The notes beneath the pieces are model-generated. The model searched no databases. It was not told where the DNA came from and saw only the letters and a program-made list of their open reading frames with translations. A stretch of 64,000 bases of DNA from a virus: the IMG/VR virus record IMGVR_UViG_3300005805_000042; one strand, given 5' to 3'. The position numbers and the translations under genes were made by a program. Shown piece after piece: positions 9,172 through 55,063 of the stretch. The stretch's first letter is position 1. Each line of letters opens with the position of its first letter.

Positions 9172-11007
9172 TTATCTCAATTCTCTCAAGTCGAATGTTC
9201 TAACACCATCAACTGTGATTCTACCATAGAACCTGTTATTTACAACCTTCTTAGCGTATCTGGTCATGATACCCTTGATAGGTGTAAAGTTGAATGGGTT
9301 GTACATTGTTGGAGTGAGTTGTAAAGGTACATATGGAGCGTAGATGTATCCAGTATCCAATAATGAAGTACCTTTGTGTCCTAACAACACCTGGTTTGCA
9401 GGGAAGTAAGGGTCACGGTAAACTTGGTATCTACCAGCTAATGTTCCAACTCTCTCAATACCCATGTTATATTGGTCTTGCTCAGGAGCCGCGTTTGATA
9501 CGTGGAAGTACTCCAAGTCATCAAAGATTGCAGAAACCTCAGAAGATACAACAATCCAGTTTGCGCCACCTCTAAGAGTTGACTTGTGGATTTGAGCTGA
9601 AATTTGGTTGATTGCAGTGATAAGAGTTTGGTTCCAGTCCTTTTGAGTGTAAGGAGTTGTACCAGCGTTAAATCTCTTCCATCCGTTGTAGTCCCAACGC
9701 AGGTTCCAAGATGCAGCCTTTCTCAAGTCTCTTAAGATTTCACGGTCAATTTCCGCAGCAACTTGCTCCGACAACAAAGCTGTAAGCTCAGCTTCAGCGT
9801 CGATGTTGTGGAATGCAGCTACGTCTTGAGCCATTTCAGGAGACCATTGTGCTCTAAGTTTTCTTTCAGTAACCGAAACAGTCACAGACTGAAGGTCAAA
9901 TGAAACTTCACCAATTTTATCTTCGAATTCAAGACTCTTATAGATTCTATAAGTCGCCAAGAATGCGTTGTTGTTAGCAGTTGAAGAAGAGAATGTAGAA
10001 CCGGTATATCCGTCAAGTGAAGAATCTCCACAAGTAATACATACAGGAACCTGTAAATCAACTTCAAGGTAAATTTTACCATCTGCAGTACAAGTATCGT
10101 AATATCCACCACCACCAGTCCTACTTTGAGGAAAAGCTAAAGTTTCATTCGAACCATATTGTACAATACCCTTACCGTATTTTTGAGTGACAACTCTGAA
10201 CAAGTAGTTATTTGAAGTGTTTGCAGAAGTTGTAGTGTTTCCTGAAAAACCACGAATTTGAAGGTCAGTTAAGAATTCTTCAGTATCCATTGGTTGACCA
10301 TTTGGACCAATCAATTGACCAGCGCCAGCAGATGCGAAACCATTCAATTCAATTAGAACTTTTCTGTAGTCACTCAAACCGTATCCAGAAACTGCTAATT
10401 GGTCACCAACCCAAACTACTGTTTTAACACCACCAGCAATTGGGGTAGAACCGTCTTCGCTAATTGTGACACCTGGAGTTAAAGCTGAAAATGAACCCTT
10501 AGAGTAGTCGTAAAGACCTGGAGGGTCTAAAGCAGGTTCGTTACCTTCGTAGAATCTATCGTAAAGGTCTTTTTGTGTGTTATAGTCATAACCACTGCTT
10601 GGAGTTTGGTCCGAATTTGCGTTAGGTGCCCCAAAAGGTGCGAAGTGCTCATTCAAAGCTCCTGTTTGATAAGACTGAATGTTTGGTACAAAGTAGAACA
10701 ACTTACCGATAGGAAGATTCATTGCTTGTACTGAAACGATGTCGTTAGCCAAAAGCTTAGAGAATACTCTCCTTACAATTGGGAATACAACAGTTTCGAA
10801 TGAACCGGTATCAGCAGTCGAAGCTGCTTCGTTAATCAAATATGACGCTTGGTTTTCATACAACTGTGCGATATTTTCTTTTAGGTGTCCGTTAAGCCCG
10901 TCAAGGAAACCTAACTTGTCCCATTTGTTAATTGTATCTTCTTTGATAACTTTAAGGTGCTTAAGACCGATGTTACCAACAAGACCACTTTCTAATAATG
11001 CTCCCAT
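9172..11007 (-). CDS. Major capsid protein (T4 gp23-like)
   Basis: Motifs FPIVRRVF, VSVQAMNLPIGKLFY, RKLRAQWSPE.AQD, AEAELTALLSEQVAAEIDREI, YAPYVPL, GIMTRYA. Confidence 0.97.
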   Translation of the reverse strand: MGALLESGLVGNIGLKHLKVIKEDTINKWDKLGFLDGLNGHLKENIAQLYENQASYLINEAASTADTGSFETVVFPIVRRVFSKLLANDIVSVQAMNLPIGKLFYFVPNIQSYQTGALNEHFAPFGAPNANSDQTPSSGYDYNTQKDLYDRFYEGNEPALDPPGLYDYSKGSFSALTPGVTISEDGSTPIAGGVKTVVWVGDQLAVSGYGLSDYRKVLIELNGFASAGAGQLIGPNGQPMDTEEFLTDLQIRGFSGNTTTSANTSNNYLFRVVTQKYGKGIVQYGSNETLAFPQSRTGGGGYYDTCTADGKIYLEVDLQVPVCITCGDSSLDGYTGSTFSSSTANNNAFLATYRIYKSLEFEDKIGEVSFDLQSVTVSVTERKLRAQWSPEMAQDVAAFHNIDAEAELTALLSEQVAAEIDREILRDLRKAASWNLRWDYNGWKRFNAGTTPYTQKDWNQTLITAINQISAQIHKSTLRGGANWIVVSSEVSAIFDDLEYFHVSNAAPEQDQYNMGIERVGTLAGRYQVYRDPYFPANQVLLGHKGTSLLDTGYIYAPYVPLQLTPTMYNPFNFTPIKGIMTRYAKKVVNNRFYGRITVDGVRTFDLRELR

Positions 11008-15087: not shown

Positions 15088-16953
15088 TTAGGAATTTAAC
15101 AACTTATCTAACTCGTCTTCTATTTTACCTAAACTTTGTTGTGCAATACCTAAATTTAGAAACTGATTACCATACAAACCAGTTTCTATCAAAATATTCA
15201 TATCTTTATTTTGTGTTGATTCTGGCGTAATTTCACCTTCTTCAGGGGTTGTTGCACCCAAGTCTGGTGTTTCACCAGTTAAGTCACCACCAAGGTCCGC
15301 ACCAAGGTCCGCACCAGCATCAAAACCACCACCACCAAACGCTGCTGCGGCTGGTTCAGAGGTTTCTCCAGGAGGTGCTTGTGGCGCCCCTTCACCAGGT
15401 TTATTTCCATACAACTTATCAAGTTGGTCAAACAATCCTGTTTTAGAGATTACTGTCGGAGTGTTTTTTAATTCCTCACCAATGGCTCTTTCCATTCTCT
15501 GTTGTAGAAGGTCAGTTCTTATTTCATCATCTGACCAATTGAAAATGTGTTTCTTAGCCCATGTAGATGAAGCTGGTTGAATACCATTTCCGGGGTCTGA
15601 AACTAAATCACGATACAAAAGAACTTTTTCTTTCCATATATCAACCTTCAGTAAGTCAGCTTGTGTTGATGGATTTGTAAGACCTAAAGTAAAATTAGAA
15701 ATTTCTTCTTCAAAACCAAGTAGAAATAAATGGATAATTGCAACCTTATTAAGTTCTTGCAACATCGACTTTTGAATTCTATTAATGGTTCTCGCAAATC
15801 GGATATCCATCAATGCTAAAGTTTTACCGTCACCAACAACTTCTTCAAAACCTAAAAAGGCCTTGGGAATTCTAAGTGCGGTAACAAGTTTTTTCTGAAT
15901 GTATTCAATGTCAGCAATCTCTGAAAGATTCTGTGCTCCAGGCAAAGTTTCAATTGGAGATGGTTGTGCTGGGTCTCTAACAGGAATGAAAAAATCTTGG
16001 TCTACAGCCATTTGGTTAAACCTCATATCAACATTGCCTGTTTTGGAATCAACAATTTGTTCCCTTTTGAACTTGTTAGCAACCCGTTGTACATAAGCCT
16101 CGACATCATCATCGTTCATGTTTCCAACATAAACTTTGAAAATTCTTCTTTCAGGGGCTCGTGAGGTACGATAAATCAACATCGCATCTTCAGATAACAA
16201 AAGTTGTTTCCAAATGCGACGAGATTTTTCCAACATTGAGGTACCATATGGGAGTTTTCTGTCGTCCCCTAATAATCTGAAGTGAGCAATTTCCCAAGTT
16301 TGAAATTCCATATTTTGGGTTTTCCAAGTAAACCTTAACCCTTTGTCTTCAGTATCATTTTTTGTGACACCAACCGATGCATTTCTTGTTGACAAACCTT
16401 GTTCAAATCTCTCAATTTCGATGTTAGGTAGTTGTTGACATCCAACAACACCTTTTTCAGGGTCTAATCTCATATAAACGAAATTATCACCGTACTTACA
16501 GGTGTTTCTTGTCCACATGGGTAGATTAGTGTTGATGTCTAAAGAATTATTAAATAAATCTGATAAAACGGATTTGATTCTTTTTGATTCAGAATAAATT
16601 TGAAGAATTTGACCATCTTCGTTTGGTGTGGTAGATTCTTCAGCGTAGATATCTAAGGCCGCAGAAATTTCCGGAGTGTACTCCATAGATTCGTAATCGT
16701 AATACGAAGCCAAACGATTTGGTTCATAATATACGGCTTGAGTGTAGAGGTTATTTTCAACTTTAGCAAATTGATTTGCTAAATAAAATGATTGTTTGGC
16801 TTGAAGTTTTTCCCTTTCGTATTCAGTTTTATCAGTAGTTCTGAGTAATTCCTTTTTATCTAACTTGTAAACAGGAAAATCTTGATTCATCAAGGCATTA
16901 GGACCCAAAGCCCTTGTTAACCTCTGCCAAACCGTTAAATTTCTATTTTCCAT
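15088..16953 (-). CDS. Portal protein (T4 gp20-like)
   Basis: Motifs PEISAALDIYAEE, LPYGTSMLE, EDAMLIYRTSRAPERRIF, LPGAQNL..I.DIEY. Confidence 0.95.
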   Translation of the reverse strand: MENRNLTVWQRLTRALGPNALMNQDFPVYKLDKKELLRTTDKTEYEREKLQAKQSFYLANQFAKVENNLYTQAVYYEPNRLASYYDYESMEYTPEISAALDIYAEESTTPNEDGQILQIYSESKRIKSVLSDLFNNSLDINTNLPMWTRNTCKYGDNFVYMRLDPEKGVVGCQQLPNIEIERFEQGLSTRNASVGVTKNDTEDKGLRFTWKTQNMEFQTWEIAHFRLLGDDRKLPYGTSMLEKSRRIWKQLLLSEDAMLIYRTSRAPERRIFKVYVGNMNDDDVEAYVQRVANKFKREQIVDSKTGNVDMRFNQMAVDQDFFIPVRDPAQPSPIETLPGAQNLSEIADIEYIQKKLVTALRIPKAFLGFEEVVGDGKTLALMDIRFARTINRIQKSMLQELNKVAIIHLFLLGFEEEISNFTLGLTNPSTQADLLKVDIWKEKVLLYRDLVSDPGNGIQPASSTWAKKHIFNWSDDEIRTDLLQQRMERAIGEELKNTPTVISKTGLFDQLDKLYGNKPGEGAPQAPPGETSEPAAAAFGGGGFDAGADLGADLGGDLTGETPDLGATTPEEGEITPESTQNKDMNILIETGLYGNQFLNLGIAQQSLGKIEDELDKLLNS

Positions 16954-25089: not shown

Positions 25090-27090
25090 ATGAACGACAC
25101 ATTAGGCGACGACGATAAGACACTCTCAAGGAAGAAACCTACCTCTGAATCGGGTACTCCCGTATTGGATAACTTTTCTCGTGACTTGAACAAATTGGCA
25201 GAACAAGGAAAACTTGACCCAGTAATAGGTCGGGAGAAAGAGATTATTCGTATTGCTCAAATCCTTTCCCGTAGAAAGAAGAACAACCCTATTATCTTGG
25301 GGGAGCCAGGCTCAGGTAAAACCGCTTTGATTGAGGGATTAGCGTCTCTTATTATCAATGGAGAATGTCCCAAAAATCTTCTTGACAAGCGTATTGTCAA
25401 TTTAGACCTTACCGCTGTGGTGGCAGGGACAAAGTATCGTGGTCAGTTCGAGGAGCGTCTAAAGGTTATCCTTGAGGAACTCTCCAACAATCCCAACATC
25501 ATTGTCTTTATCGATGAGATACACACATTGATTGGTTCAGGTAACTCAACAGGTAGTTTAGACGGTTCAAACATCTTTAAACCCGCACTTGCTCGTGGAG
25601 AAATTCAATGTATCGGTGCCACTACCTTGGATGAGTATCGTAAGTCATTTGAAAAAGACGGGGCTTTGGAGCGTAGATTCCAAAAGGTCATTGTAGACCC
25701 CTCATCAGTTGAGGAAACCATTCAAATTCTCACTCACATCAAAGACCGATACGAATCGTTCCACAAAGTGTCCTACTCTCAAGAAGTAATCGAACTTTGC
25801 GTGAAGCTCGCAGACCGATATATCACCGACCGTGAGTTCCCCGACAAAGCCTTTGACATCTTGGATGAAGTCGGTGCTCGTAGTCAAACCGAGCAAAAAA
25901 TTCCTGAAGTAATTGAAGAACTAAAACTCAAGGCTTCGGAAATCAAACAACAAAAAATGGATGTTGTAAAGAAACAGAACTACGAAGAAGCGGCAGCACT
26001 AAGGGATAAGGAGCGTAAAATCCTTGCTAAACTCGAAGAGGAAAAGCGGAAATACGCTGAAGAATCCTCAACAACTCGTATCCCAATTTCGGTGGAACAA
26101 GTCTACGATGTTGTTTCCAACATGACCAAAATCCCTGTGAGTAAAATGTCAGTTGACGATATTAACGCTCTTATTAATATGGACAAAACCCTTATGGAAA
26201 AGGTAATTGGTCAAGACGATGCGGTGTCTAAAATTGTCAAATCAATCCGTCGTAACCGAATCGGAATCAAAGACCCTAACCGTCCTATTGGTTCATTTAT
26301 CTTCTTAGGTTCAACAGGTGTGGGTAAGACCCACTTGGCAAAACAGATTGCTAAGGAGATGTTCGGGTCAGAGGATGCGTTGATTCGAGTCGACATGAGT
26401 GAATATCAAGAGAAACACACACTGTCTCGTTTGGTGGGAGCACCTCCAGGATATGTCGGTTACGAAGAAGGTGGACAGCTTACCGAGCAGGTGAAAAACA
26501 AACCATATGCGGTTATCCTATTCGATGAGGTTGAGAAAGCCCACAAGGACATTTTCTCAATTCTCCTTCAGATTCTTGACGATGGTCACGCCACCGATTC
26601 CCTCGGTCGAAAAATCAACTTTAAGAACACCCTTATCATCATGACCACCAACCTCGGAGTCAAGAAACTTCAAGACTTTGGAGCTGGTATCGGGTTCTCC
26701 TCTAACAAGTACTCAAACGAGGAGGCTAAGAAGCAAATCTTGATGAAGGAAATGAAGAACTTCTTTTCCCCCGAGTTCCTAAACCGTATCGATGACACCA
26801 TTGTGTTCCAAACACTCACAAAGGAGAATATCGATAAGATTGTAGGACTAGAACTTAGTAAACTCTCCAAGCGACTAGGTCACATGAAGTACAAAGTGGT
26901 GATGGACCCTACCCTCACTGAGTACATCGCAAAAGTCGGTTTCGATGATGAATACGGAGCTCGTCCAGTAAAACGAGCCATCCAAGACAAAATCGAAGAT
27001 TACCTATCGGAACTTATCCTAATAGGTAAACTTAAAGAAAATCGAAAATACACCCTAAAGGTGGTAAATGAAGAGGTAAAAATCTCTTAA
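25090..27090 (+). CDS. clpC: ClpC-type AAA+ unfoldase lacking the N-terminal domain
   Basis: Two Walker A motifs (GEPGSGKT, GSTGVGKT), a UVR-type middle domain and an IGF ClpP-docking loop (GAGIGF). Confidence 0.9.
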   Translation: MNDTLGDDDKTLSRKKPTSESGTPVLDNFSRDLNKLAEQGKLDPVIGREKEIIRIAQILSRRKKNNPIILGEPGSGKTALIEGLASLIINGECPKNLLDKRIVNLDLTAVVAGTKYRGQFEERLKVILEELSNNPNIIVFIDEIHTLIGSGNSTGSLDGSNIFKPALARGEIQCIGATTLDEYRKSFEKDGALERRFQKVIVDPSSVEETIQILTHIKDRYESFHKVSYSQEVIELCVKLADRYITDREFPDKAFDILDEVGARSQTEQKIPEVIEELKLKASEIKQQKMDVVKKQNYEEAAALRDKERKILAKLEEEKRKYAEESSTTRIPISVEQVYDVVSNMTKIPVSKMSVDDINALINMDKTLMEKVIGQDDAVSKIVKSIRRNRIGIKDPNRPIGSFIFLGSTGVGKTHLAKQIAKEMFGSEDALIRVDMSEYQEKHTLSRLVGAPPGYVGYEEGGQLTEQVKNKPYAVILFDEVEKAHKDIFSILLQILDDGHATDSLGRKINFKNTLIIMTTNLGVKKLQDFGAGIGFSSNKYSNEEAKKQILMKEMKNFFSPEFLNRIDDTIVFQTLTKENIDKIVGLELSKLSKRLGHMKYKVVMDPTLTEYIAKVGFDDEYGARPVKRAIQDKIEDYLSELILIGKLKENRKYTLKVVNEEVKIS

Positions 27091-28949: not shown

Positions 28950-29639
28950 ATGAAAGACCTTATTCTCAAAGTTCTTCGTGAGGAGGTAAGCAACGGAAAA
29001 GTAACGTGCGACAATTGTGGTTGGTCTTGGAGTTTGAAAGATGGTGGTCATGACCCATATATTTGTCATCAGTGTAACCACAACAACGAACCCAAAAATT
29101 TAAAAGAATCTTACAAACACCCCAATCAAGAAAGTTTTGACAAATACTTTCTTATAGTAAAAAAATATTGGGATAAAGTTGGTCTTTCTCGGAAATCGGA
29201 AAAAATGGCTGGTAAATATATTTTAGATTCTTCACTAACATTTCCTTTTGCCATAGAGTATCTTGGTGGTACCAAAAAATTTATAAAAGAAATATCAGAT
29301 AAAATTCAAAATCAAGTTTTTGATTGTAAAGAATGTGGGGGATATAATTTCAAGTATTATGTTGATGAGTTTGATGTGGAAAGAAACTACAATTTTCACG
29401 AAATTAATGTTTCGGTAGTCGTTGACACCTCAATATCAGGTAGAACTTACAGCTCCGAAAATTTCAGTTTTACAAATGTAGATTACCAAATATTGTCAAA
29501 CTTGGAAGGTTCTGAATTTTATAGTGAGGTAATCCAAGAACTCAAGGCAATAATTAGTGAAGAATTAGAAAAAAAAATAGATGCACCGTTTGAACTTTGG
29601 GCGGACATTGTACGATTAGATTTTAAAACTTTTGATTAG
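28950..29639 (+). CDS. Late hypothetical protein with a zinc-ribbon (CxxC..CxxC)
   Basis: Start moved to ATG 28950, after TATTTAT at 28938-28944; MKDLILKVLREE leader. Confidence 0.7.
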   Translation: MKDLILKVLREEVSNGKVTCDNCGWSWSLKDGGHDPYICHQCNHNNEPKNLKESYKHPNQESFDKYFLIVKKYWDKVGLSRKSEKMAGKYILDSSLTFPFAIEYLGGTKKFIKEISDKIQNQVFDCKECGGYNFKYYVDEFDVERNYNFHEINVSVVVDTSISGRTYSSENFSFTNVDYQILSNLEGSEFYSEVIQELKAIISEELEKKIDAPFELWADIVRLDFKTFD

Positions 29640-30463
29640 AACACCCAAGAATTGATTTGGGGTTTCAAATCTTTTTGATGTTTACGATATCCCAATTTCT
29701 CAATCATCTTTTTACCCATCTCAATTCCATTGAAAACATCTTCGATTACGACATATTCGTTGGGTGTGTGGTAGTCGTAGTACCCAATAGAGAAATTAAT
29801 ACAGGAGATGTCAAATTTACCCCGTAAAGCCCATACATCTGTATAGGGGTGAACCATATACTCTAAGTCTTCACCAATACCCTCAGTTAAAATGTTATTA
29901 CAAACATCAAAGAATTCAGAATCACGGTTGAACAATTGCTGACCCCAACAATATTCAGTCACCATCCAATTTTCGGGAGCATCGAACTGAATACCATATC
30001 CAACATTTTCAAAGAACTCGGGACTAGCTTTTTTTGAACCATGACAACCCGTTTCTTCAGAAACAAAAAATGTCGCTTTCAGATTCGGTAGTTCCTCCAA
30101 TAATTCCAAACAAGCAAAAACACCCGCCTTATCATCACCACCAATTCCTGTGGGTTCTCCATGGTCGTTATATGCTTTGAGTGAAGGTCGTTGTTCTCCT
30201 TGAGCGTTAACCAAAAATTCTTCACGAATATTAATTGGACCCAGTCCATGTACGGTGTCGGTGTGGGAAATTACACAAGGGAAATACTCGATATTCTCAT
30301 CAGTTTGTTTAGTTGCATAAACATTTAGATGTTCATCCACGAAATATGGGATTTGTTTTTCCTTTAGCCACTCACAAATAAACTCGACCATCATACCCTC
30401 TCGGTATGTTGCGGTTGGAACGGATAAGACTTTCTTTAAGAATTCAATTTTACTGTGAGTCAT
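29636..30463 (-). CDS. M28/M20-family Zn peptidase
   Basis: Motifs SHTDTVH, GIGGDDKAG, FVSEETGCHGS, YHTPNEY. Confidence 0.85.
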   Translation of the reverse strand: MTHSKIEFLKKVLSVPTATYREGMMVEFICEWLKEKQIPYFVDEHLNVYATKQTDENIEYFPCVISHTDTVHGLGPINIREEFLVNAQGEQRPSLKAYNDHGEPTGIGGDDKAGVFACLELLEELPNLKATFFVSEETGCHGSKKASPEFFENVGYGIQFDAPENWMVTEYCWGQQLFNRDSEFFDVCNNILTEGIGEDLEYMVHPYTDVWALRGKFDISCINFSIGYYDYHTPNEYVVIEDVFNGIEMGKKMIEKLGYRKHQKDLKPQINSWVF

Positions 30464-31598
30464 GAGATAATATTTTACGCAAAGATAGTAAAATATTCTT
30501 TGATTCCAAAGTCAGCTCATAATTGTGGTACCAGTTGTAAAAATTCTGAGGGGATATTTTTAGTTCATCACTACTCCATCTACGAATCGGTAAATCAGAA
30601 TAACTACCGTCTGTTACCTTATTAACAAAAAGAATGAGTTTATTAGAACCTGCGTCATAGTGACTTATCGCGAATTTGATATTCTTCTGTGGTACATTGA
30701 TGGGTTTACCCGTTCCGAATTGTTTTAATATTTTTGTCAAAATTTCTGTTCTCTGAGGTGAAACTTCCTCGTTTACTTTCTCAAGCAAGTCCGTAATCAT
30801 TTGGTTAGTTTCCGAAACATACCTCGGATTTTTCTGAAATTCATTAACATCAATGTTCCATCTTTCTTCTTCCCAACCCCCAATTTTTTTTCCTCGAGTC
30901 AATCCATTCATTGCTGAATAGATACTTACCGAATCTGATTGTCCCTCTTCTTTGTTCGGATAAATTTTCATCAAATAGTATAAATTTCCAGCTGGTATAG
31001 ATACATTGAAATAATTACTATATCTCCCAACGGTTTCTATATTCACACCATAAGGTCCTAATACCTCACTCAATTGATTTGATATCAGTTTCCCCATTTT
31101 TTCGGTAAACTCCTCATTTTGATATTCATAAATGACATCTAAAATTTGATTAATTTCTCTTGGATATGATTTTAAGATTGTTTCGTTGATAGGCCTTGTA
31201 TCCGTATTTGCGGTAAAATCTTCGTTGAACTTCCGATACAACTTCAAAATCATCTGATATTCCTCACCGTTTCTATCGAAATAATCTCCAAGGAAAAAAT
31301 CATTCTCCGCCATCCTATCATCGATGATATCAGGACCTTCATACTCCATATTACCTCCATCCAAAAACCTAGATAACCACCAATAATCAAACTCGTCAAA
31401 ATTAAAAAAATCTACCAACTCGTTACCATCCATTTTGAATTTAAAAATAGATTTTACCCTATTGGAATCTACTATGATTTTGTCTACCATACTTTGAGCT
31501 AAAACATCCTCGGAAGATACTCTACCCTTAATGTAGTCGTAAACCAACTGAGGAAAATCCTTAGTACTTTCTGAAATTATTGTTCGGGACTTGGTCAT
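30450..31598 (-). CDS. Late hypothetical protein
   Basis: 382 aa; TATAAATA at 31604-31611. Confidence 0.7.
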   Translation of the reverse strand: MTKSRTIISESTKDFPQLVYDYIKGRVSSEDVLAQSMVDKIIVDSNRVKSIFKFKMDGNELVDFFNFDEFDYWWLSRFLDGGNMEYEGPDIIDDRMAENDFFLGDYFDRNGEEYQMILKLYRKFNEDFTANTDTRPINETILKSYPREINQILDVIYEYQNEEFTEKMGKLISNQLSEVLGPYGVNIETVGRYSNYFNVSIPAGNLYYLMKIYPNKEEGQSDSVSIYSAMNGLTRGKKIGGWEEERWNIDVNEFQKNPRYVSETNQMITDLLEKVNEEVSPQRTEILTKILKQFGTGKPINVPQKNIKFAISHYDAGSNKLILFVNKVTDGSYSDLPIRRWSSDELKISPQNFYNWYHNYELTLESKNILLSLRKILSHDSQ

Positions 31599-31613
31599 AT
31601 CAATATAAATACT

Positions 31614-31621
31614 TATATTTG
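31614..31621 (+). promoter_or_regulatory. Bacteroidota sigma70 -7 element upstream of tmRNA
   Basis: TATATTTG matches TAnnTTTG. Confidence 0.7.
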
Positions 31622-31639
31622 TAGAGTTCTTTGAAATAT

Positions 31640-32243
31640 GGGGGTGAACGGTATTGATTGGCAGGGTTAATCATACGGGGCATGCAGTGAGATGTTTCCT
31701 ATCACTTTAATCTATGGGAGTGCTTTTTAAGTGGCAACACTTTTGAAAAGCTTCAGGCTGTAGGTCTTCTTACAACTGAAGCAGTTACTGTAGCTTAGGC
31801 TATAATAACCGTGGGTCGATGGGGACATATACCTTGAAACAGAAGTCCTTATGGTGTGGTTTCTACCTTAAAAGGAATGGAGGTAATGTTTGGTGTTCTA
31901 CCGATTTGAGTGAACACCCCACAGTTTCTGATGACGATGGCAAAATAGGAATCAGATATTTCGGAGGGTTAAACAAACCCTGACCTAAGCATGTAGTCCT
32001 TTATGGGTAAACTGAGCAAGACGTGGGTTAAAAATCGAGCCCCTTCATATCGTGAGATATGTCGAAAATCGGATGAATTCAGGGGAAGTCTTTCGGGATT
32101 ATCCTGAGCCAAGCCTGGTAGGAACAGGAAGGTGCAGAGACTAGTGGGTGGTACACGCTTCTACCGTAATACCACATTAGCGTCCGACATCTTGAAAAAG
32201 ATGATGATATAGTCCACTTGTGTCGAATCCCACCACCTCCACC
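31640..32243 (+). ncRNA. ssrA: tmRNA, intron-containing
   Basis: Acceptor GGGGGTG/CACCTCC with G3.U70; GCATGC/AAGCATGTAG helix; tag ORF 31733-31798 GNTFEKLQAVGLLTTEAVTVA*; split T-arm GTGGGT|TCGAATCCCAC. Confidence 0.93.
32029..32222 (+). mobile_element. Group I intron (IC3-like) in the tmRNA T-loop, no ORF
   Basis: P AATTCAGGGGAA, Q ATCCTGAGCC, R GTGCAGAGACTAG, S GATATAGTCC; terminal G; IGS TCGAGCCC. Confidence 0.92.
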
Positions 32244-32397
32244 GTGGACAAATTTGAAAGGGTCTTTAATTAGACCTTTTCATTTGTTCATAAATTAGAT
32301 TTATAATTTATGTAAAATTTGATGTTAAGTTTTATTATTTTTTACTACTTGACAGATAATTATTGTCGATTATAATATTCAATATAATTTATACAAA

Positions 32398-32568
32398 ATG
32401 AAAAACATCATCGCATCTATTTTTGCTGCTGTCGTTTTAACTTCTTGTGGCGGTGAATCAACAGTTGAAGAAACTGTTATTGACACCACAACTGTTGTTA
32501 CCGAGGAGGATACCCTTGTAACTGAAGAAGTTGTTGAAACTTTAGGAGAAGAAGCTACCGCAGAGTAA
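32398..32568 (+). CDS. Small acidic lipoprotein (56 aa)
   Basis: MKNIIASIFAAVVLTSC lipobox, then an E/T/V-rich tail; not in the ORF track. Confidence 0.8.
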   Translation: MKNIIASIFAAVVLTSCGGESTVEETVIDTTTVVTEEDTLVTEEVVETLGEEATAE

Positions 32569-32642: not shown

Positions 32643-33044
32643 ATGAGTAAACACGCAAATATTTGTAGTCACAATTGTTTTGGTAGGAAAGACTATGATG
32701 GTAGTTGTTGTCACATAGAAGACAGAGATTACATAATTGGACCTCACACGGACCCCGAAGAGTTTCTTGAAAGATTGTCTGATAGATTCAATAGAAAAGT
32801 AAAATTTGAAGAAATATTTTATTCATTCGAGGAAGGTTCAAGATTATTTCCTGAAAGAAGTTCTTGGCAAAATCCTAATTCGTATCCCTCGTTGAAAATC
32901 GATATGGAAAAAGAACGGAAACCATGTATATTTTATAATTCTACATTGCGTTCTTGTTCTATTTACGATATCCGACCACAGATTTGTAGAAAATATTATT
33001 GTCAGTTTTTGCACGATGTTTTACATCCTGTTGACAAAAAGTAA
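32643..33044 (+). CDS. YkgJ-like Cys-cluster (Zn/Fe-chelating) protein
   Basis: C...C.....G.CC and PCIFY....CSIYDIRPQICRKYYC. Confidence 0.8.
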   Translation: MSKHANICSHNCFGRKDYDGSCCHIEDRDYIIGPHTDPEEFLERLSDRFNRKVKFEEIFYSFEEGSRLFPERSSWQNPNSYPSLKIDMEKERKPCIFYNSTLRSCSIYDIRPQICRKYYCQFLHDVLHPVDKK

Positions 33045-33988: not shown

Positions 33989-34064
33989 GCCGAAGTAGCT
34001 CAGTGGTAGAGCAGCTTTCGTAAAAGATGGTGTGACGCGATAGGTTCGATTCCTGCCTTCGGCT
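33989..34064 (+). tRNA. Atypical tRNA-Thr(CGT)-like
   Basis: Thr-type acceptor, D and T arms; distorted anticodon arm and enlarged variable region. Confidence 0.55.
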
Positions 34065-34094
34065 CTTAATTACTCAATAAACTATTTATTGATT

Positions 34095-34727
34095 ATGAAC
34101 AGTAGATTATTGAAAGAAATTTCTGAGATTAAAAAACAAATCTCTTTATTGGAAGACTATGTAAGAGTGGATGAAACAGGATTTTCATTCATTACTACCG
34201 ATGATGATGCAACCAAAACTGACAAAATCTCAAGGGCTTTGTTACAAGATATCAACACCGCCGCTAAAAGAGCTGGTGTTAAAGCGGTTATAACTACCGC
34301 CAGCTCGGGACACTCTGAAAAAACTATTAGTGGAACTCGTAGTAGACATCCCGATAATAACGCGGTTGATATTTCAAATATCAATGGAGAAGCCGCTCAG
34401 GGTGCGAGTTCCAACAATCCAGGTAACCCAAAATTCAAAAAACTTGGTGATGCTTTGGTGAATGAATTGGTTGATATGGGTTATTCTTTAAATGTCGAGA
34501 GTGGAAAAGATAAAGCCGTTTTTTGGCAAACAAATAAAGGTGGTAACCACTACAATCACATTCATGTCTCAAATATTACTGATACACCGAGTGAGGAATC
34601 AGAAACTGAAGATACCGAAACTACGACTGCCGGTGTCAGAGATGGGCAGTTTCAACAGGAAAAACCATCCTTTGATATCTCACAAACTTTAAAATCATTC
34701 CAAAAGTTTAAAGATATTTTCAAGTGA
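34095..34727 (+). CDS. Peptidase M15-like (LAS) cell-wall hydrolase, late
   Basis: SRH....AVDI and HYNHIHVS Zn motifs; TATTTAT at 34083-34089. Confidence 0.75.
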   Translation: MNSRLLKEISEIKKQISLLEDYVRVDETGFSFITTDDDATKTDKISRALLQDINTAAKRAGVKAVITTASSGHSEKTISGTRSRHPDNNAVDISNINGEAAQGASSNNPGNPKFKKLGDALVNELVDMGYSLNVESGKDKAVFWQTNKGGNHYNHIHVSNITDTPSEESETEDTETTTAGVRDGQFQQEKPSFDISQTLKSFQKFKDIFK

Positions 34728-34939: not shown

Positions 34940-35226
34940 TGTTTCCAATCTGAAAATTTTAAACCCCACATCAAACTAATCATTGCCATTTCCCTTTCCG
35001 CAAGGTGTTTGTTGATTCTAAGATTTTTTCTTATAAATTCAGTACCCCACAACTGCCATTCATCATTTTGAGCTTTGGTCATTTCCCATTCCTGATACCA
35101 AGAATCTTTTCTGTCTTTAATATCCTCGTAAGAAATATTATGACCTGCAATATAAAACATTTTGTTGATTAGTTCTTCAACAACTTTCTGATTTTTTTCC
35201 TGTTTTGATAATCGCTTCTTTGTCAT
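34936..35226 (-). CDS. Hypothetical protein
   Basis: 96 aa, translationally coupled to its neighbour. Confidence 0.7.
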   Translation of the reverse strand: MTKKRLSKQEKNQKVVEELINKMFYIAGHNISYEDIKDRKDSWYQEWEMTKAQNDEWQLWGTEFIRKNLRINKHLAEREMAMISLMWGLKFSDWKQ

Positions 35227-35816
35227 TACATTAAAAATTTTATAATTTTATCCTTTATACCTGATTGCTTTATACCTTCCCAAGACCTGGGTGTTTGAAC
35301 AAAATTACTTAGTCCTGGTTTGTTATCTGAACCATCTTTGTCAGAAAATTGAGCACCCAAAAAATCTATAGACATATCCAAATCATCAACCGCAACCCAA
35401 TGAGTAATCTCAGGATGAGATTCCAACCAATGTTGAATTTCCATGAATCTCTCTAATTCCAAATCAGCCCTGAATCTTAGTTTAGCCCATTCAGATGGAA
35501 ATAAATCTTTAAACATTCCTGTGGTATCTATTGGTCTTTTAATAACACCCTGTGATAAGTAATAATCTCCAAGTTCCTCAATCGTTGCGTGAAACCTCCA
35601 ATCTGAACTCACCACATATTCTGCGCCTGTTTTCTCAAGAATTTTGTTGAAAACCTTAATCGCTTTTGGGTCGAAGTTATCAAATCGAACATATACAGGT
35701 AAGTCATTTGCTGATGTACCCATAGTTCTACCCTCTTTGATTTGTTTCTTCCTACGAGAACCCCAGTTCTCTGCCAAACAGATTACACCATCATTATCTA
35801 AGAATATTACTTTCAT
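35226..35816 (-). CDS. HAD-family protein (RNA-repair-associated HAD type)
   Basis: MKVIFLDNDGV, VVSSDWR, WVAVDDLD. Confidence 0.85.
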   Translation of the reverse strand: MKVIFLDNDGVICLAENWGSRRKKQIKEGRTMGTSANDLPVYVRFDNFDPKAIKVFNKILEKTGAEYVVSSDWRFHATIEELGDYYLSQGVIKRPIDTTGMFKDLFPSEWAKLRFRADLELERFMEIQHWLESHPEITHWVAVDDLDMSIDFLGAQFSDKDGSDNKPGLSNFVQTPRSWEGIKQSGIKDKIIKFLM

Positions 35817-51527: not shown

Positions 51528-51788
51528 ATGAATACAAATAACCCACTCAGTCATCAAGATTTGATGAACGCCTCACTTTTGTTTTCCAAAGCACTCTCCT
51601 TAATTTTAGATGACAAACAAGGTATTGTTGTTGATATTGTCCCCGATTCGGGTGTTGACATGGGAGAAAACACAACCAAAGTTGTTATTTACCGTTTGGA
51701 AAATCAAATTCACGTGCAAAATTTAGAAATGGATATTGTTGAAGGAACTATAGTAGCTCTTAGTGATAAAGATAAAACTGAAAATTAA
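51528..51788 (+). CDS. Hypothetical protein
   Basis: 86 aa. Confidence 0.65.
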   Translation: MNTNNPLSHQDLMNASLLFSKALSLILDDKQGIVVDIVPDSGVDMGENTTKVVIYRLENQIHVQNLEMDIVEGTIVALSDKDKTEN

Positions 51789-51795
51789 TAAAAAT

Positions 51796-53463
51796 ATGAC
51801 AGTCTTAGGTTTCTCCGTTGGGCACGATAAAGGTGCTGTAATAATCAAAAATGGTCAAGTAATTGTTGGAATAACACAAGAAAGACTCACAAGAAGAAAA
51901 CATGATGGAGCATTCACAGGTGGTGCAATTCCTGTGGAGTCTATTATGTATTGTCTTTCCGTATTGGATATTACCGTAGATGATTTAGACCTCATTGTTT
52001 ACAGTTCAACTGAATTGGTCGATAACACATACGAACTTTTCAATAAAATCTTCCAAGTACCAAAAAAGAAACTTGTGTTCATGCCTCATCATTTGGCTCA
52101 CGCATATTCTTCTTTCTTTTCTTCAGGTTTCGATGAAGCTGCAGTTATTGTCGCAGATGCATCGGGTTCAATTTTAAATCATAAAACTAAACTTGGTGAA
52201 TGGTATCCCGAAAAATCACATGAAGGACTCAATGAGGGTGAAGATTGGACTGAAGGTATTTCTTTGTATCATTTTACCAGAAGTGGTCATAGTGAAGTTT
52301 ATAAGAAATGGATAAAATATCCCGTACCCCTTGAAAGTAATGATGGAGTGTCGTTAGGCACTATGTATTCACAGGGATGTTTACAATTGATATATGAACC
52401 CAACAGTAATGTTTGGCCGGCAGGTAAACTTATGGGATTGGCTTCATATGCAAATTCAGAATTTGTAAAGAATTTCCCTGAATACATAAAATATGAAAAC
52501 GATGACATTCATATACCAAACGGTGGGATTCTTCCACATATTACTTGGAGAAATGATTTTCAAACTAAAGCTAATGTTGCAGGGGTTTATCAAAGAGAAC
52601 AAGAAAAGGCATCCCTGATATTGGCAGATATGATTAAAAAACGCACAAACTCAAATAATGTTTGTACTGCAGGGGGTTCTTTTTTGAATTGTAATTCTAA
52701 TGAAATTATCATAAATTCAGGACTATTCGAAAATACATTTTTTGTTCCTCCAGCTGATGACAGTGGTATCCCCCTTGGATGTGCGTGGTACGCATATCAA
52801 CAAGTTGCTGAAATTCAACAAACATTTCCATTGTGGCCCTACTTTGGTAAAAAGTATTCAAATAGAGATGTTGAAGAAGCTACGAGTAAATTTCCAAACC
52901 TCCGAGTAGAATATTGGGATAATTTTGATGATATTGTTGAAACCATAACTGACAGACTTGTTGAAAATAAAGTTATCGGATGGTTTCAAGGAGGTTCTGA
53001 AATTGGACCTAGAGCTTTGGGAAATCGTTCAATTATTGCGTCACCCACATCAAAATGGATGAAAGACAGAGTTAACCATGACCATAAACATAGAGAATGG
53101 TATCGTCCCTTTGCACCTGCAGTAATTTTTGATTTACAAAAAGAAATATTTCAAACTGACTACTTTTCTCCATTTATGTTGGTTACTGCAACTGTGTCAG
53201 ATGAATGGAAAGAAAGAATTCCTGCGGTAGTCCATATCGATGGGTCCGCAAGATTTCAATCTGTCACACCAAAAAGTAATGAAAAGTTTTTTAAACTTAT
53301 AAATAAATTTTACGAAAAAACTGGAATCCCTGTTTTGTTGAACACTAGCTACAATGGTGGTCACGAACCAATGATTGAAACACCCTTTGATGCTATTAAA
53401 TCTTTTTTAGATTGTAATTTAGATTTTCTAATAGCTGAAAATTATATTATTAGTAAAAATTAA
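51796..53463 (+). CDS. Carbamoyltransferase (NodU/CmcH family) 1
   Basis: HD.GA..., QERLTRRKH, HHLAHAYS, GKLMGLASY, GPRALGNRS, RPFAP, LLNTSYN. Confidence 0.93.
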   Translation: MTVLGFSVGHDKGAVIIKNGQVIVGITQERLTRRKHDGAFTGGAIPVESIMYCLSVLDITVDDLDLIVYSSTELVDNTYELFNKIFQVPKKKLVFMPHHLAHAYSSFFSSGFDEAAVIVADASGSILNHKTKLGEWYPEKSHEGLNEGEDWTEGISLYHFTRSGHSEVYKKWIKYPVPLESNDGVSLGTMYSQGCLQLIYEPNSNVWPAGKLMGLASYANSEFVKNFPEYIKYENDDIHIPNGGILPHITWRNDFQTKANVAGVYQREQEKASLILADMIKKRTNSNNVCTAGGSFLNCNSNEIIINSGLFENTFFVPPADDSGIPLGCAWYAYQQVAEIQQTFPLWPYFGKKYSNRDVEEATSKFPNLRVEYWDNFDDIVETITDRLVENKVIGWFQGGSEIGPRALGNRSIIASPTSKWMKDRVNHDHKHREWYRPFAPAVIFDLQKEIFQTDYFSPFMLVTATVSDEWKERIPAVVHIDGSARFQSVTPKSNEKFFKLINKFYEKTGIPVLLNTSYNGGHEPMIETPFDAIKSFLDCNLDFLIAENYIISKN

Positions 53464-53470
53464 TTTTATT

Positions 53471-55063
53471 ATGAGTGTAATCTATGGACTTTACGCAGCA
53501 GGACATAGTCCATCAACAACTTTGATTGTTGACGGTGAAATAATACATGCTGTAGAAGAAGAGAGAATCAAACGAATTAAATCGGGAGAAGACTATGGTG
53601 CGTACCCCGATTTATCACTAAAGGCTGTCGAAGATAGAACTAATATAAAACTCAAAGATGCTGATTATGTAGTTTTTGCTGAGCCCGCACCACCGGTATA
53701 TGCTAGGAGACTAACTAATGATAATTATTCTAAAGTGTCTCACCACCGTGCACATAATACCGCAGCTTATTTTACAAGTGGAATGGAAGGAAAAGTACTT
53801 TCAATTTCATACGATGGTGGTGGAGAATCTTCTTTTATGAGAGTATATGCATGTGAGGACGGTAAGATGAATGAAGTTCACCGATTATCGGGAACTAACT
53901 CTGGAAGTCTTTCACAACTTTGGGGATTTATAACAAATTGGATGATGGGTCGTAATTCAAATTGTAGGTTTCAATGGATAATGTGTAAGGATGAAGGTAA
54001 GGTCATGGGAATGGCACCTGATGGTTATTACGATGAAAGAATTCAAAAAATTCTACATAGTATCCTATCATATAATGATTTAAAATTTTATCCTTCGGGA
54101 ACTGACCAAAAAACTAAGTTTGTTATGGAACGATTACTCGAAGAAGGTTTTTTTGACACTCTTAAAAAACGAGAAGTTTTCAGTTTCAATTTACAATACT
54201 TTACTGAGGAATTGATGTTGAGATTTATCGACGACCTACACAAGAAAATGCCCGACTACAAGAAACTTTGTTTTTCAGGTGGTCTTTTTGCGAATGTTAA
54301 ACTGAATCAAAAAATAAATGAATTACCGTGGGTTGAAGAAATATACATTCTTCCTCCAATGGGTGATGAAGGACTTTCTTTAGGTGCTGCAATTCATAAA
54401 GCAGTTGAATTAGGTGAAATTACAAAACCAATAAAACTTAAAAATGTTTATTTTGGTTTCGATTATTCAGATGAAGAAGTTATAAATTTGGCAACAAAAC
54501 ATGACTTTTTAGTAAAAAAATATATTGTTGATGAAATTGCGACGGATTTAAATAAAGGTTTGATTATTGGATGGTTTCAAGGTAAAATGGAACTTGGACC
54601 ACGTTCCTTGGGTGCGAGGAGTATTTTGGTAAGACCTACAGATTACAATACCCACGCAGAGTTAAATCGAAGATTGAAAAGATATGATACAATGCCTTTT
54701 GCACCAATGATAATGGGTGAGTTTTTTGAAACGGTTTTCCCGACCGCAAAATCCAAGTATGCCGCTCAGTTTATGACTTTAACATTTCCAACCCATGAAC
54801 CATGGATTTATAAAATTCCCGCAGTAATTCAGAAATCGGATAAAACTGCCAGACCTCAGGTAGTGGAAAAAGAAAATCTTCCCAAAGTTTGGGAACTTAT
54901 GAATTCGTACTATGAACTCTCAGGTATCCCATTACTACTTAACACCTCATTCAATGCTCATAACGAACCCATTATTGAGCACCCCGAAAATGCTTTTGTT
55001 CACCTTAAAAATAAAGTGATTGATAAATTAGTTATTGGAGATTATGTATACGAAAATAAATAA
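53471..55063 (+). CDS. Carbamoyltransferase (NodU/CmcH family) 2
   Basis: EEERIKRIK, HH.AH, EGKVMGMAP, GGLFANV, GPRSLGARS, LLNTSFN. Confidence 0.93.
   Translation: MSVIYGLYAAGHSPSTTLIVDGEIIHAVEEERIKRIKSGEDYGAYPDLSLKAVEDRTNIKLKDADYVVFAEPAPPVYARRLTNDNYSKVSHHRAHNTAAYFTSGMEGKVLSISYDGGGESSFMRVYACEDGKMNEVHRLSGTNSGSLSQLWGFITNWMMGRNSNCRFQWIMCKDEGKVMGMAPDGYYDERIQKILHSILSYNDLKFYPSGTDQKTKFVMERLLEEGFFDTLKKREVFSFNLQYFTEELMLRFIDDLHKKMPDYKKLCFSGGLFANVKLNQKINELPWVEEIYILPPMGDEGLSLGAAIHKAVELGEITKPIKLKNVYFGFDYSDEEVINLATKHDFLVKKYIVDEIATDLNKGLIIGWFQGKMELGPRSLGARSILVRPTDYNTHAELNRRLKRYDTMPFAPMIMGEFFETVFPTAKSKYAAQFMTLTFPTHEPWIYKIPAVIQKSDKTARPQVVEKENLPKVWELMNSYYELSGIPLLLNTSFNAHNEPIIEHPENAFVHLKNKVIDKLVIGDYVYENK

What the first reader, a model, noticed from the sequence alone, without database searches (positions are those of the whole stretch)
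32029..32222. Self-splicing group I intron inside the tmRNA T-loop
Seen: removing 32029-32222 joins GTGGGT to TCGAATCCCAC and restores a perfect T-arm. The 5' exon ends in U, which pairs with the G of IGS GCCC (P1). The intron ends in G, TCGA can form P10 with the 3' exon, and the P/Q/R/S cores resemble IC3 tRNA introns. There is no homing ORF. Known: a T-loop group I intron is described for Clostridium botulinum tmRNA, so the site has precedent but is rare. Inference: splicing gates production of functional phage tmRNA, and the intron may shield ssrA from insertion or cleavage.
Basis: partly seen in the sequence, partly recalled or inferred. Interest (0 to 1): 0.75.

Follow-up and report, generated by a model that had tools for sequence, protein, structure and literature searches.

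The report
Intron-split tmRNA gene in lake phage
A large freshwater phage carries its own ribosome-rescue RNA (tmRNA) gene, interrupted in the T-loop by a very small, ORF-less group I intron; the layout is well known in bacteria, so it is a new member of a known kind, though its relatives show how such introns shift site, shrink and travel with DNA-cutting enzymes.

Summary
Rfam calls a group I intron at 32019-32235 (72.9 bits, cut-off 50). ARAGORN finds a 410-nt tmRNA only after 32029-32222 is removed. The exons are 31640-32028 and 32223-32243.

Related phage contigs give 35 intron-less, 15 same-site and 6 shifted-site unique alleles. The T-stem halves co-vary across the intron, so the spliced RNA is under selection.

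- The intron is IA-like, not IC3-like, because it has a co-varying P7.1 hairpin.
- The site is T-loop subsite 2, not the Clostridium botulinum subsite 7.
- T-loop introns are no longer rare: 883 tmRNA sequences are catalogued.

New here:
- Sister alleles carry the same intron one nucleotide downstream, with a matching AG/GA swap in the guide sequence.
- The window's 194-nt form has lost both the P9 GAAA hairpin and its receptor in P5.
- In relatives, free-standing endonuclease genes sit beside intron-bearing or T-arm-altered alleles. None sits beside the commonest intact allele, and none is in this window.

This scan has already found intron-split phage tmRNA genes on other DNA.

The parts
31640..32028 (+). 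tmRNA 5' exon: acceptor 5' strand GGGGGUG (G3 pairs with U70), tag reading frame, pseudoknot region, T-stem 5' strand GUGGG and T-loop nucleotide U54
   Evidence: ARAGORN on the in-silico spliced sequence; about 100 homologous loci
31733..31798 (+). Tag reading frame GNTFEKLQAVGLLTTEAVTVA plus TAG stop, with resume codon GGC (Gly)
   Evidence: ARAGORN; the frame and the C-terminal ...GLLxxE(E/A)VTVA are conserved in intron-bearing and intron-less relatives; the one difference from record G001 inside the tag is synonymous
32029..32222 (+). 194-nt ORF-less group I intron between T-loop nucleotides 1 and 2 (subsite 2 of PMC11915505)
   Evidence: Rfam RF00028, 72.9 bits; intron-less allele L022; helix counts
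32025..32042 (+). P1 stem-loop. 5' exon GGGU (32025-28) plus U32029 pair with AGCCC (32038-42), with the wobble U32028:G32039. The internal guide sequence is UCGAGCCC (32035-42); its UCGA also forms P10 with 32223-26.
   Evidence: Sequence. The guide is invariant in 10 subsite-2 alleles and reads UCGGACCC in 5 subsite-3 alleles.
32046..32061 (+). P2 hairpin CAUAUC/GAUAUG with a GUGA (GNRA) loop
   Evidence: Two compensatory pair changes within type A; type B has a different 6-bp stem with the same GUGA loop
32069..32075 (+). P3 5' strand, pairing with 32181-32187 (7 bp)
   Evidence: 100% paired in 15 alleles
32079..32107 (+). P4 (32079-83 with 32103-07) and a short P5 (32088-91 with 32096-99, UUCG loop). 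The 11-nt tetraloop-receptor motif that type B and the wider family carry here is missing.
   Evidence: P5 closing pair C-G / A-U / U-G
32108..32133 (+). P6 (32108-10 with 32131-33) and P6a (32114-17 with 32125-28)
32137..32143 (+). P7 5' strand: G32137, bulged A32138, then GACUA. It pairs with 32210-32215 (pseudoknot) and is the likely guanosine-binding site.
   Evidence: Invariant in 15 alleles; lies in the 17-nt core word shared with more than 120 viral contigs
32144..32175 (+). P7.1 two-tier hairpin: outer GUGG/CCAC, internal loop with GUAAUA, inner GGUACA/UCUACC. The window alone has a C32154:C32161 mismatch.
   Evidence: covariation in the wider family
32188..32203 (+). P8 hairpin with a GAAA loop
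   Evidence: Two pairs with compensatory changes
32210..32222 (+). P7 3' strand UAGUCC followed by a 7-nt tail ACUUGUG that ends in the terminal G32222. There is no P9 hairpin.
   Evidence: Type B and nearly all family members have a P9 hairpin with a GAAA loop here.
32223..32243 (+). tmRNA 3' exon: T-loop nucleotides 2-7 (UCGAAU), T-stem 3' strand CCCAC, acceptor 3' strand CACCUCC, then ACC. The last A of CCA is not encoded.
   Evidence: ARAGORN; T-stem and acceptor co-vary with the 5' exon across the intron
32255..32282 (+). Terminator-like hairpin plus T run, 12 nt after the tmRNA 3' end

Best explanation
Positions 31640-32243 are a phage-encoded tmRNA (ssrA) gene. Its T-loop is interrupted between U54 and U55 by a 194-nt group I intron with no ORF. 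The primary transcript cannot form the T-arm until the intron is removed. Removal follows the standard two-step group I pathway. First, guanosine attacks after U32028, which is held in a U:G wobble by the guide sequence. Then P10 aligns the 3' exon and the terminal G32222 is released. Exon ligation gives GUGGG-UUCGAAU-CCCAC and a 410-nt tmRNA. The intron belongs to a large family of phage introns with an IA-type P7.1 extension. It is a reduced derivative that has lost both the P9/L9 GAAA hairpin and the matching 11-nt receptor in P5. It behaves as a selfish, mobile passenger rather than as a needed part of the gene. Closely related phages carry the gene without it, or with the same intron one nucleotide downstream, retargeted by an AG-to-GA swap in the guide sequence. 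In relatives the intron often travels with a free-standing endonuclease gene next to the tmRNA gene (collaborative homing). The window's copy has no such neighbour and is probably an orphan. Shown here: the intron and exon identities, the junction, conservation and covariation, the patchy distribution, and the endonuclease association. Inferred: actual splicing, the direction of the reduction, and the endonuclease target.
For: Rfam scores the intron at 72.9 bits against a cut-off of 50. ARAGORN calls a tmRNA only after deleting 32029-32222, and also for sister alleles spliced at subsite 2 or subsite 3. The intron-less allele L022 matches the predicted junction. Among intron-bearing alleles the split T-stem co-varies as GUGGG/CCCAC, GCGGG/CCCGC and AUGGG/CCCAU, and the acceptor as GGGGAUG/CAUCUCC. 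The tag frame is conserved. The tmRNA plus intron is 99.2% identical to record G001, against 96% in the flanks. For the intron helices, 96.5% of cells are paired, against 31-40% when partners are slid. Five pairs show two-sided changes, and 0 of 500 shuffles reach the covariation score. The guide sequence co-varies with the splice subsite: UCGAGCCC at subsite 2 and UCGGACCC at subsite 3. One allele (L026) lacks the intron's first U yet keeps a 7-nt loop only if it is spliced after GGGU. The window's core is 91-95% identical to type B and 91-99% identical to other type A copies. Presence or absence needs at least 14 changes on a 56-tip exon tree, against a shuffle mean of 17. Endonuclease genes adjoin 6 of 7 type B, 2 of 8 type A and 5 of 5 AGCGG-type alleles, but 0 of 20 of the common intact allele. 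The precedent for collaborative homing is F-CphI and the psbA intron (PMC6083498).
Against: There is no RNA evidence of splicing. The intron lacks P9 and the L9-P5 clamp, and the window alone has a C:C mismatch in P7.1 (32154:32161), so autonomous splicing could be weak. The minimum-free-energy z-score is only -1.2. No endonuclease gene lies beside the tmRNA gene in this window. The endonuclease association is a correlation among related sequences, and the cleavage site is unknown. No SmpB gene was found in five partial relative records, so the activity of the phage tmRNA is itself inferred from conservation.
Confidence: 0.85

Rival explanations
1. The intron is real but no longer splices by itself. 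After losing P9/L9 and the P5 receptor it depends on a host or phage protein (an RNA chaperone or maturase-like factor) to fold and splice.
For: P9 and the tetraloop receptor are missing compared with type B and the wider family. There is a C:C mismatch in P7.1. Tetraloop-receptor clamps are known to stabilise group I cores (established knowledge). Many phage introns are helped by proteins such as StpA (mentioned in PMC2729099).
Against: Ten distinct subsite-2 alleles keep the same minimal architecture, with compensatory changes and intact exons. Minimal forms also occur in an unrelated tmRNA lineage (L237). All catalytic-core helices are intact.
Confidence: 0.25
2. The copy in this window is a dead relic. 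The intron cannot be removed, so this phage's tmRNA gene is a pseudogene.
For: The P7.1 mismatch is unique to the window. There is no P9. No SmpB or endonuclease gene was seen nearby.
Against: The tmRNA plus intron differs from record G001 at only 5 of 604 positions, against 4% in the flanks. Of those five, one is synonymous in the tag and one is G-C to G-U in P6a. The promoter-like box, leader motif and terminator are intact. P7.1 is peripheral.
Confidence: 0.07
3. The intron is kept because it is useful to the phage: it acts as a timing gate on tmRNA production, or as a general shield of ssrA against integrating elements.
For: tmRNA genes are common integration sites (PMC11915505). Splicing must precede function.
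Against: 35 of 56 unique alleles lack the intron, and presence is scattered almost at random on the gene tree. No regulatory element was found in the intron. Integration into a lytic-type jumbo phage genome is not an obvious threat. The only shielding with any support is against neighbouring homing endonucleases, which is selfish-element logic.
Confidence: 0.1

Closest known systems
Intron-form tmRNA genes of bacteria (group I intron in the T-psi-C loop; Williams 2002; tmRNA database 2025, PMC11915505)
   Same: A group I intron sits in the tmRNA T-loop, with U at -1 in a U:G wobble and a terminal G, and the exons rebuild the T-arm. Most such introns lack a homing endonuclease gene (4.1% carry one). 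Subsite 2 is one of the four catalogued subsites.
   Different: This one is encoded by a phage, and I found no published report of that. In the catalogue, subsite 2 comes only from Anaerolineae plus one Myxococcota, and subsite 3 only from Bacteroidia. At 194 nt with no P9, this copy is far below the 293-nt average of the founding set. A direct comparison with the catalogued sequences was not possible: my one scan of bacterial genomes found only chance hits.
Clostridium botulinum tmRNA intron (287 nt; shown to self-splice; PMC2729099)
   Same: A T-loop group I intron in tmRNA with a short 3' exon. From memory, it was reported as subgroup IA3, which would fit the P7.1 extension seen here.
   Different: It sits at subsite 7 (after loop nucleotide 6), not subsite 2. 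It is 93 nt longer and is bacterial. Sequence similarity was not tested.
Cyanophage psbA group I intron with the free-standing endonuclease F-CphI (collaborative homing; PMC6083498, citing Zeng et al. 2009)
   Same: The nearest GenBank phage match of the window's intron is the psbA intron of Synechococcus phage S-SRM01 (74% over 153 nt), which has endonuclease genes on both sides. Relatives of the window carry an Endo VII/HNH-like gene 15-34 nt after the tmRNA gene.
   Different: The host gene is an RNA gene, not a protein gene. The window itself has no endonuclease neighbour. Cleavage specificity is untested.
IC3 tRNA introns (tRNA-Leu of cyanobacteria, Azoarcus tRNA-Ile)
   Same: Small size, a tRNA-like exon context, a P2 with a GNRA loop, and no ORF.
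   Different: Those introns sit in the anticodon loop, have no P7.1/P7.2, and keep P9 with an L9 tetraloop. This one sits in the T-loop, has P7.1 and lacks P9.

Membership tests
Group I intron (Rfam RF00028) | Covariance-model score at or above the curated gathering score | tested here: met
   72.9 bits against 50, E 1e-16, full model 1-253
Group I intron (Rfam RF00028) | Core helices P3-P8 with the P3/P7 pseudoknot and a bulged-A G-C site in P7 | tested here: met
   All helices placed by coordinate; 96.5% of cells paired in 15 alleles against 31-40% when slid
Group I intron (Rfam RF00028) | U at -1 in a U:G wobble in P1, and G as the last intron nucleotide | tested here: met
   U32028:G32039 and G32222; conserved in all alleles, and the wobble G moves with the splice subsite
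Group I intron (Rfam RF00028) | Guanosine-dependent self-splicing | not testable with these tools
   No RNA data or assay available; supported only indirectly by exon covariation across the intron
Intron-form tmRNA gene (PMC11915505) | The ligated exons give a tmRNA with a 7-bp acceptor stem, a G3:U70 pair, a T-arm and a tag frame | tested here: met
   ARAGORN calls a 410-nt tmRNA after intron removal; G31642:U32238 by sequence
Intron-form tmRNA gene (PMC11915505) | The intron lies at one of the T-loop subsites (2, 3, 7 or 8) | tested here: met
   It lies between loop nucleotides 1 and 2, which is subsite 2
   A 32-nt two-tier hairpin lies at 32144-32175, with covariation in the family; there is no P9
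Subgroup IA (IA3 was reported for the C. botulinum tmRNA intron; from memory) | A P7.1/P7.2-type extension between P7 and P3' | tested here: met
   50 of 57 family sequences pair fully, with 10 outer-stem and 19 inner-stem pair types
Subgroup IA (IA3 was reported for the C. botulinum tmRNA intron; from memory) | The remaining subgroup-specific junction and peripheral signatures | not tested
   No subgroup-specific models were available; Williams 2002 is not held
Collaborative homing pair (ORF-less intron plus free-standing endonuclease) | A free-standing endonuclease gene next to the intron-bearing gene | tested here: not met
   The window's neighbours give no endonuclease match. The feature is met in relatives: 6 of 7 type B and 2 of 8 type A loci.
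Collaborative homing pair (ORF-less intron plus free-standing endonuclease) | The endonuclease cuts the intron-less allele, and the intron blocks cutting | not testable with these tools
   Association only: 0 of 20 loci with the common intact allele have such a neighbour

The most novel reading that the evidence does not exclude
One intron lineage has moved by a single nucleotide within the tmRNA T-loop, from subsite 3 to subsite 2 or the reverse. The move came through an AG/GA swap in its guide sequence plus a matching change at its 3' end. On the subsite-2 branch it then shed the L9 tetraloop and its P5 receptor together. If so, the four T-loop subsites catalogued in bacterial tmRNA genes need not be independent invasions. 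Phages, with tmRNA-adjacent homing endonucleases as the driving force, may be the reservoir from which the bacterial subsite-2 and subsite-3 introns come.
Probability: 0.45. Interest if true: 0.6.

Novelty: new member of a known kind. Interest (0 to 1): 0.4.

Why it matters
Standard tools miss these genes. ARAGORN and the Rfam tmRNA models are silent on the unspliced gene, so phage tmRNA genes are under-counted. The family also offers a natural comparison for ribozyme work: near-identical introns with and without the L9-P5 clamp, and with guide sequences aimed one nucleotide apart. It links tmRNA T-loop introns to free-standing homing endonucleases, which would explain why an ORF-less intron is so patchily spread. 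None of this changes the basic picture: T-loop group I introns in tmRNA genes are an established gene form.

Tried and rejected
- Rfam tmRNA models on the unspliced region gave only a 9-bit alpha_tmRNA hit. The tool cannot take a spliced sequence, so tmRNA identity rests on ARAGORN and on homologues.
- My one scan of bacterial genome contigs used the P7 3' strand, then up to 35 nt, then a T-loop and acceptor pattern. It gave three chance hits inside coding sequence and no intron. I therefore could not compare with the catalogued Anaerolineae and Bacteroidia introns, and I had no handle for a Bacteroidia genome.
- The search for SmpB (PF01668) in five partial relative records found no match. 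This is uninformative, because those records are 21-57% complete.
- Williams 2002 (PMC99078) is not held.
- Neighbouring ORFs 30450-31598, 32398-32568, 32643-33044 and 34089-34727 were tested as possible homing endonucleases, with no support.
- An alternative P7.1 pairing (GUGGUA/UACCAC) was rejected in favour of the two-tier stem, which co-varies in the wider family.
- Splice boundaries one nucleotide downstream for the window were rejected. The intron would then end in U, and allele L026 would lose a loop nucleotide.
- The minimum-free-energy z-score (-1.2) is not informative for a pseudoknotted ribozyme.

Full report
**What is there**

The sequence shows a tmRNA-like 5' end at 31640 (GGGGGUGAAC...). 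A T-stem 5' strand GUGGG ends at 32027, and 194 nt further on comes UCGAAUCCCAC-CACCUCC-ACC. Rfam's group I intron model matches 32019-32235 on the + strand at 72.9 bits (gathering score 50, E 1e-16, whole model). ARAGORN reports no tmRNA in the window as it stands or in 31500-32400. When 32029-32222 is deleted it reports a 410-nt tmRNA with tag GNTFEKLQAVGLLTTEAVTVA*. The acceptor stem has the G3:U70 pair (G31642 with U32238).

**Is it a phage?**

The window encodes a major head protein (9172-11007, minus strand) and a portal protein (15088-16953, minus strand), plus a dozen tRNA genes. Its own assembly is not held. The nearest record is an 84.6-kb IMG/VR fragment (G001), which is 99% identical here.

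The head protein is closest to:
- an uncultured 484-kb phage;
- Microcystis phage Mel-JY01;
- Flavobacterium phage immuto;
- Rhodothermus phage RM378.

A TAnnTTTG box at 31614-31621 and a glycine resume codon resemble what I recall of Bacteroidota promoters and tmRNA tags. The host is probably a Bacteroidota bacterium, but that is inferred and not shown.

**Anatomy of the intron (coordinates checked; pair counts)**

- **P1:** GGGU|U (32025-29) pairs with AGCCC (32038-42), with the wobble U32028:G32039.
- **P10:** the UCGA just 5' of the guide (32035-38) can pair with the first four exon bases (32223-26).
- **P2:** 32046-51 with 32056-61, GUGA loop.
- **P3:** 32069-75 with 32181-87.
- **P4:** 32079-83 with 32103-07.
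- **P5:** 32088-91 with 32096-99, UUCG loop.
- **P6 and P6a:** 32108-10 with 32131-33, and 32114-17 with 32125-28.
- **P7:** G32137, bulged A32138, then 32139-43, pairing with 32210-15.
- **P7.1:** a two-tier hairpin at 32144-32175.
- **P8:** 32188-93 with 32198-203, GAAA loop.
- **3' tail:** only 7 nt (ACUUGUG), ending in G32222. There is no P9.

No ORF of 50 aa or more lies in the intron.

**Relatives**

A 3'-exon word, an intron core word, a neighbouring protein and a conserved tmRNA word together retrieved about 100 loci from viral and metagenome contigs. Classified, they comprise 65 intron-less loci, 37 intron-bearing loci and 5 truncated ones. As unique 5' exons they give 35 without intron, 15 of type A (same site as the window) and 6 of type B.

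The intron-less allele L022 reads GCGGGU|UCGAUUCCCGC, which is exactly the predicted ligation product. Among intron-bearing alleles the two halves of the T-stem, 190-220 nt apart in the DNA, change together: GUGGG/CCCAC, GCGGG/CCCGC and AUGGG/CCCAU. The acceptor stem does the same (GGGGAUG/CAUCUCC). The tag frame is kept, with conservative changes. Against record G001 the tmRNA plus intron is 99.2% identical while the flanks are 96% identical. The five differences include a synonymous tag change and a G-C to G-U change in P6a. This is the best available evidence that the spliced RNA is made and used.

**Intron conservation**

On 15 distinct intron alleles, 96.5% of cells in my structure are standard pairs, against 31-40% when partners are slid. 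Five pairs (in P2, P5 and P8) show changes on both sides. No shuffle out of 500 reaches the observed covariation score. P3, P4, P6, P7 and P7.1 do not vary within this set, so they neither support nor contradict the structure there.

The 17-nt core word around P6/P7 occurs in more than 120 viral contigs. In that wider family the P7.1 hairpin co-varies strongly. Of 57 unique sequences with the GUAAnA-type internal loop, 50 pair fully, with 10 outer-stem and 19 inner-stem pair types. A hairpin between P7 and P3' is the hallmark of subgroup IA and is absent from IC3.

The family sits in tRNA anticodon loops, in protein genes and in other phage tmRNA lineages. The nearest GenBank phage match is the psbA intron of Synechococcus phage S-SRM01.

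**Two sites, one intron**

Type B alleles read GCGGGUU|CAAAUCGGACCC... at the 5' junction and ...UUCGAG|CGAGUCCCGCC at the 3' junction. The splice site there lies after U55 (subsite 3). The guide is UCGGACCC, so the wobble G has moved by one base relative to the window's UCGAGCCC. ARAGORN accepts tmRNAs spliced in silico at subsite 3 for type B and at subsite 2 for type A. Allele L026 lacks the intron's first U and keeps a 7-nt loop only if it is spliced after GGGU. This fixes subsite 2 for type A.

The window's core (J2/3 to P7') is 91-95% identical to type B and 91-99% identical to other type A copies. On the exon tree the window's nearest non-identical neighbour is a type B allele, L030. 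The same lineage therefore occupies two adjacent subsites. The 2025 catalogue read the four subsites in bacteria as separate invasions (PMC11915505). Here a one-nucleotide retargeting looks at least as likely.

**Miniaturisation**

Type B (222-223 nt) has a P9 hairpin with a GAAA loop. It also has a CUAAG...UAUG insert in P5 that matches the 11-nt tetraloop receptor. The wider family has the same pair, in one case the canonical CCUAAG...UAUGG. Type A (192-195 nt) lacks both. So does a similar minimal intron in an unrelated tmRNA lineage (L237). Joint loss of the two partners of a known tertiary contact is coherent. The direction (loss rather than gain) is inferred from the family norm. In addition, the window alone has C32154 where all 14 other alleles have G, which gives a C:C mismatch in P7.1.

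**Mobility**

On a 56-tip tree of the 5' exon, presence or absence needs at least 14 changes. The shuffle mean is 17.0, and 6.8% of shuffles are as low. Well-supported branches alone force at least 6 changes. The A/B type needs only 2 changes, and no shuffle out of 500 is as low. The intron is therefore gained, lost or recombined often, although it has no ORF.

I clustered the genes flanking the tmRNA gene and scanned representatives. The clusters included:
- an Endo VII/HNH-like endonuclease, encoded 15-34 nt after the tmRNA gene on the opposite strand;
- a GIY-YIG SegE-like endonuclease, 38 nt after it;
- a further HNH-type gene.

In 58 non-redundant loci, an endonuclease gene adjoins these shares of each allele class:

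| Allele class | Loci with an endonuclease neighbour |
|---|---|
| Type B (intron at subsite 3) | 6 of 7 |
| Type A (intron at subsite 2) | 2 of 8 |
| Intron-less, AGCGG-UUCGACU-CCGCU | 5 of 5 |
| Intron-less, AGGGG-UUCGACU-CCCCU | 3 of 16 |
| Intron-less, GCGGG-UUCGAUU-CCCGC (commonest) | 0 of 20 |

This is the pattern expected if these enzymes cut the intact T-arm DNA, and if carriers are protected either by the intron or by T-arm substitutions. That is the arrangement shown for F-CphI and the cyanophage psbA intron (PMC6083498). Here it remains a correlation among related sequences.

In the window itself the neighbours are an unknown 382-aa protein, a 56-aa lipoprotein-like ORF and a CxxCxxCC protein. 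None is an endonuclease by Pfam or PHROGs.

**Comparison with what is known**

Group I introns in the tmRNA T-loop have been known since 2002. The C. botulinum intron (287 nt) has been shown to self-splice (PMC2729099). The 2025 database has 883 unique intron-form sequences in 21 phyla. It records 1,658 instances at subsite 7, 22 at subsite 2 (Chloroflexota, plus one Myxococcota), 9 at subsite 3 (Bacteroidota) and 14 at subsite 8. RefSeq viruses were screened for that work, but the text mentions no phage intron form. My literature searches found none either.

Earlier reports of this scan describe intron-split phage tmRNA genes on other DNA. One of them proposes endonucleases beside tmRNA genes. 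I used that note as a lead and tested it on this family as described above.

**Verdict**

This is a real group I intron in a phage tmRNA gene and a new member of a known kind. The points of wider interest come from its relatives: the one-nucleotide site shift with a compensating guide change, the joint loss of tetraloop and receptor, and the link to neighbouring endonucleases.

Noticed in passing
window 25090-27090 (+), 29636-30463 (-), tag at 31733-31798: A ClpB/ClpC-like double AAA+ ATPase (PHROG name 'ATP-dependent protease', E 3e-238) and an M20-like peptidase lie 1.2-6.5 kb upstream of the tmRNA gene. The tag is unusually long (21 aa) and ends in VTVA rather than the usual LAA. A phage-specific tagging and degradation route is conceivable but untested.
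   Followed up: no
window 31614-31639: A TAnnTTTG box (31614-21) and the motif GTTCTTTGAAATAT (31626-39) lie directly before the tmRNA 5' end. GTTCTTTGAA is kept in essentially all 42 distinct upstream sequences of relatives, even where the rest of the upstream region differs. It may be a leader or boxA-like processing or antitermination signal.
   Followed up: partly
L126:9890-10648, L090:1440-2102, L080:288-1163 and sister loci: Free-standing Endo VII/HNH-like, GIY-YIG SegE-like and HNH-type endonuclease genes sit immediately after the tmRNA gene in relatives. They are associated with intron-bearing or T-arm-altered alleles.
   Followed up: partly
L204, L210, L223, L228, L130 (subsite 3); L207, L237 (subsite 2): Other, unrelated phage tmRNA lineages carry introns of the same family in the T-loop. 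L237 has another P9-less minimal form. L155, L183 and L194 carry family members in tRNA anticodon loops.
   Followed up: partly
L022:3341-3959 and 12 of 25 in-silico spliced relatives: ARAGORN fails to call this tmRNA family even when no intron is present. These phage tmRNA genes are therefore under-annotated for two separate reasons.
   Followed up: no
window 41957-42084, 42297-42394, 33989-34065, 43458-43530: Over-long Rfam tRNA matches (128 and 98 nt) and two ARAGORN 'tRNA-???' calls with two-base anticodons lie in the tRNA arrays. A freshwater-1 RNA lies at 42130-42191. Earlier reports of this scan cover this island.
   Followed up: no
window 35226-35816 (-): A HAD domain of the 'Swiss Army Knife' RNA-repair type (PF18143, E 6e-20) lies between the two tRNA arrays.
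   Followed up: no
window 51763-55063 (+): Two tandem Nol/NodU-like carbamoyltransferase genes (PHROG 1601, E 1e-101 and 1e-82).
   Followed up: no
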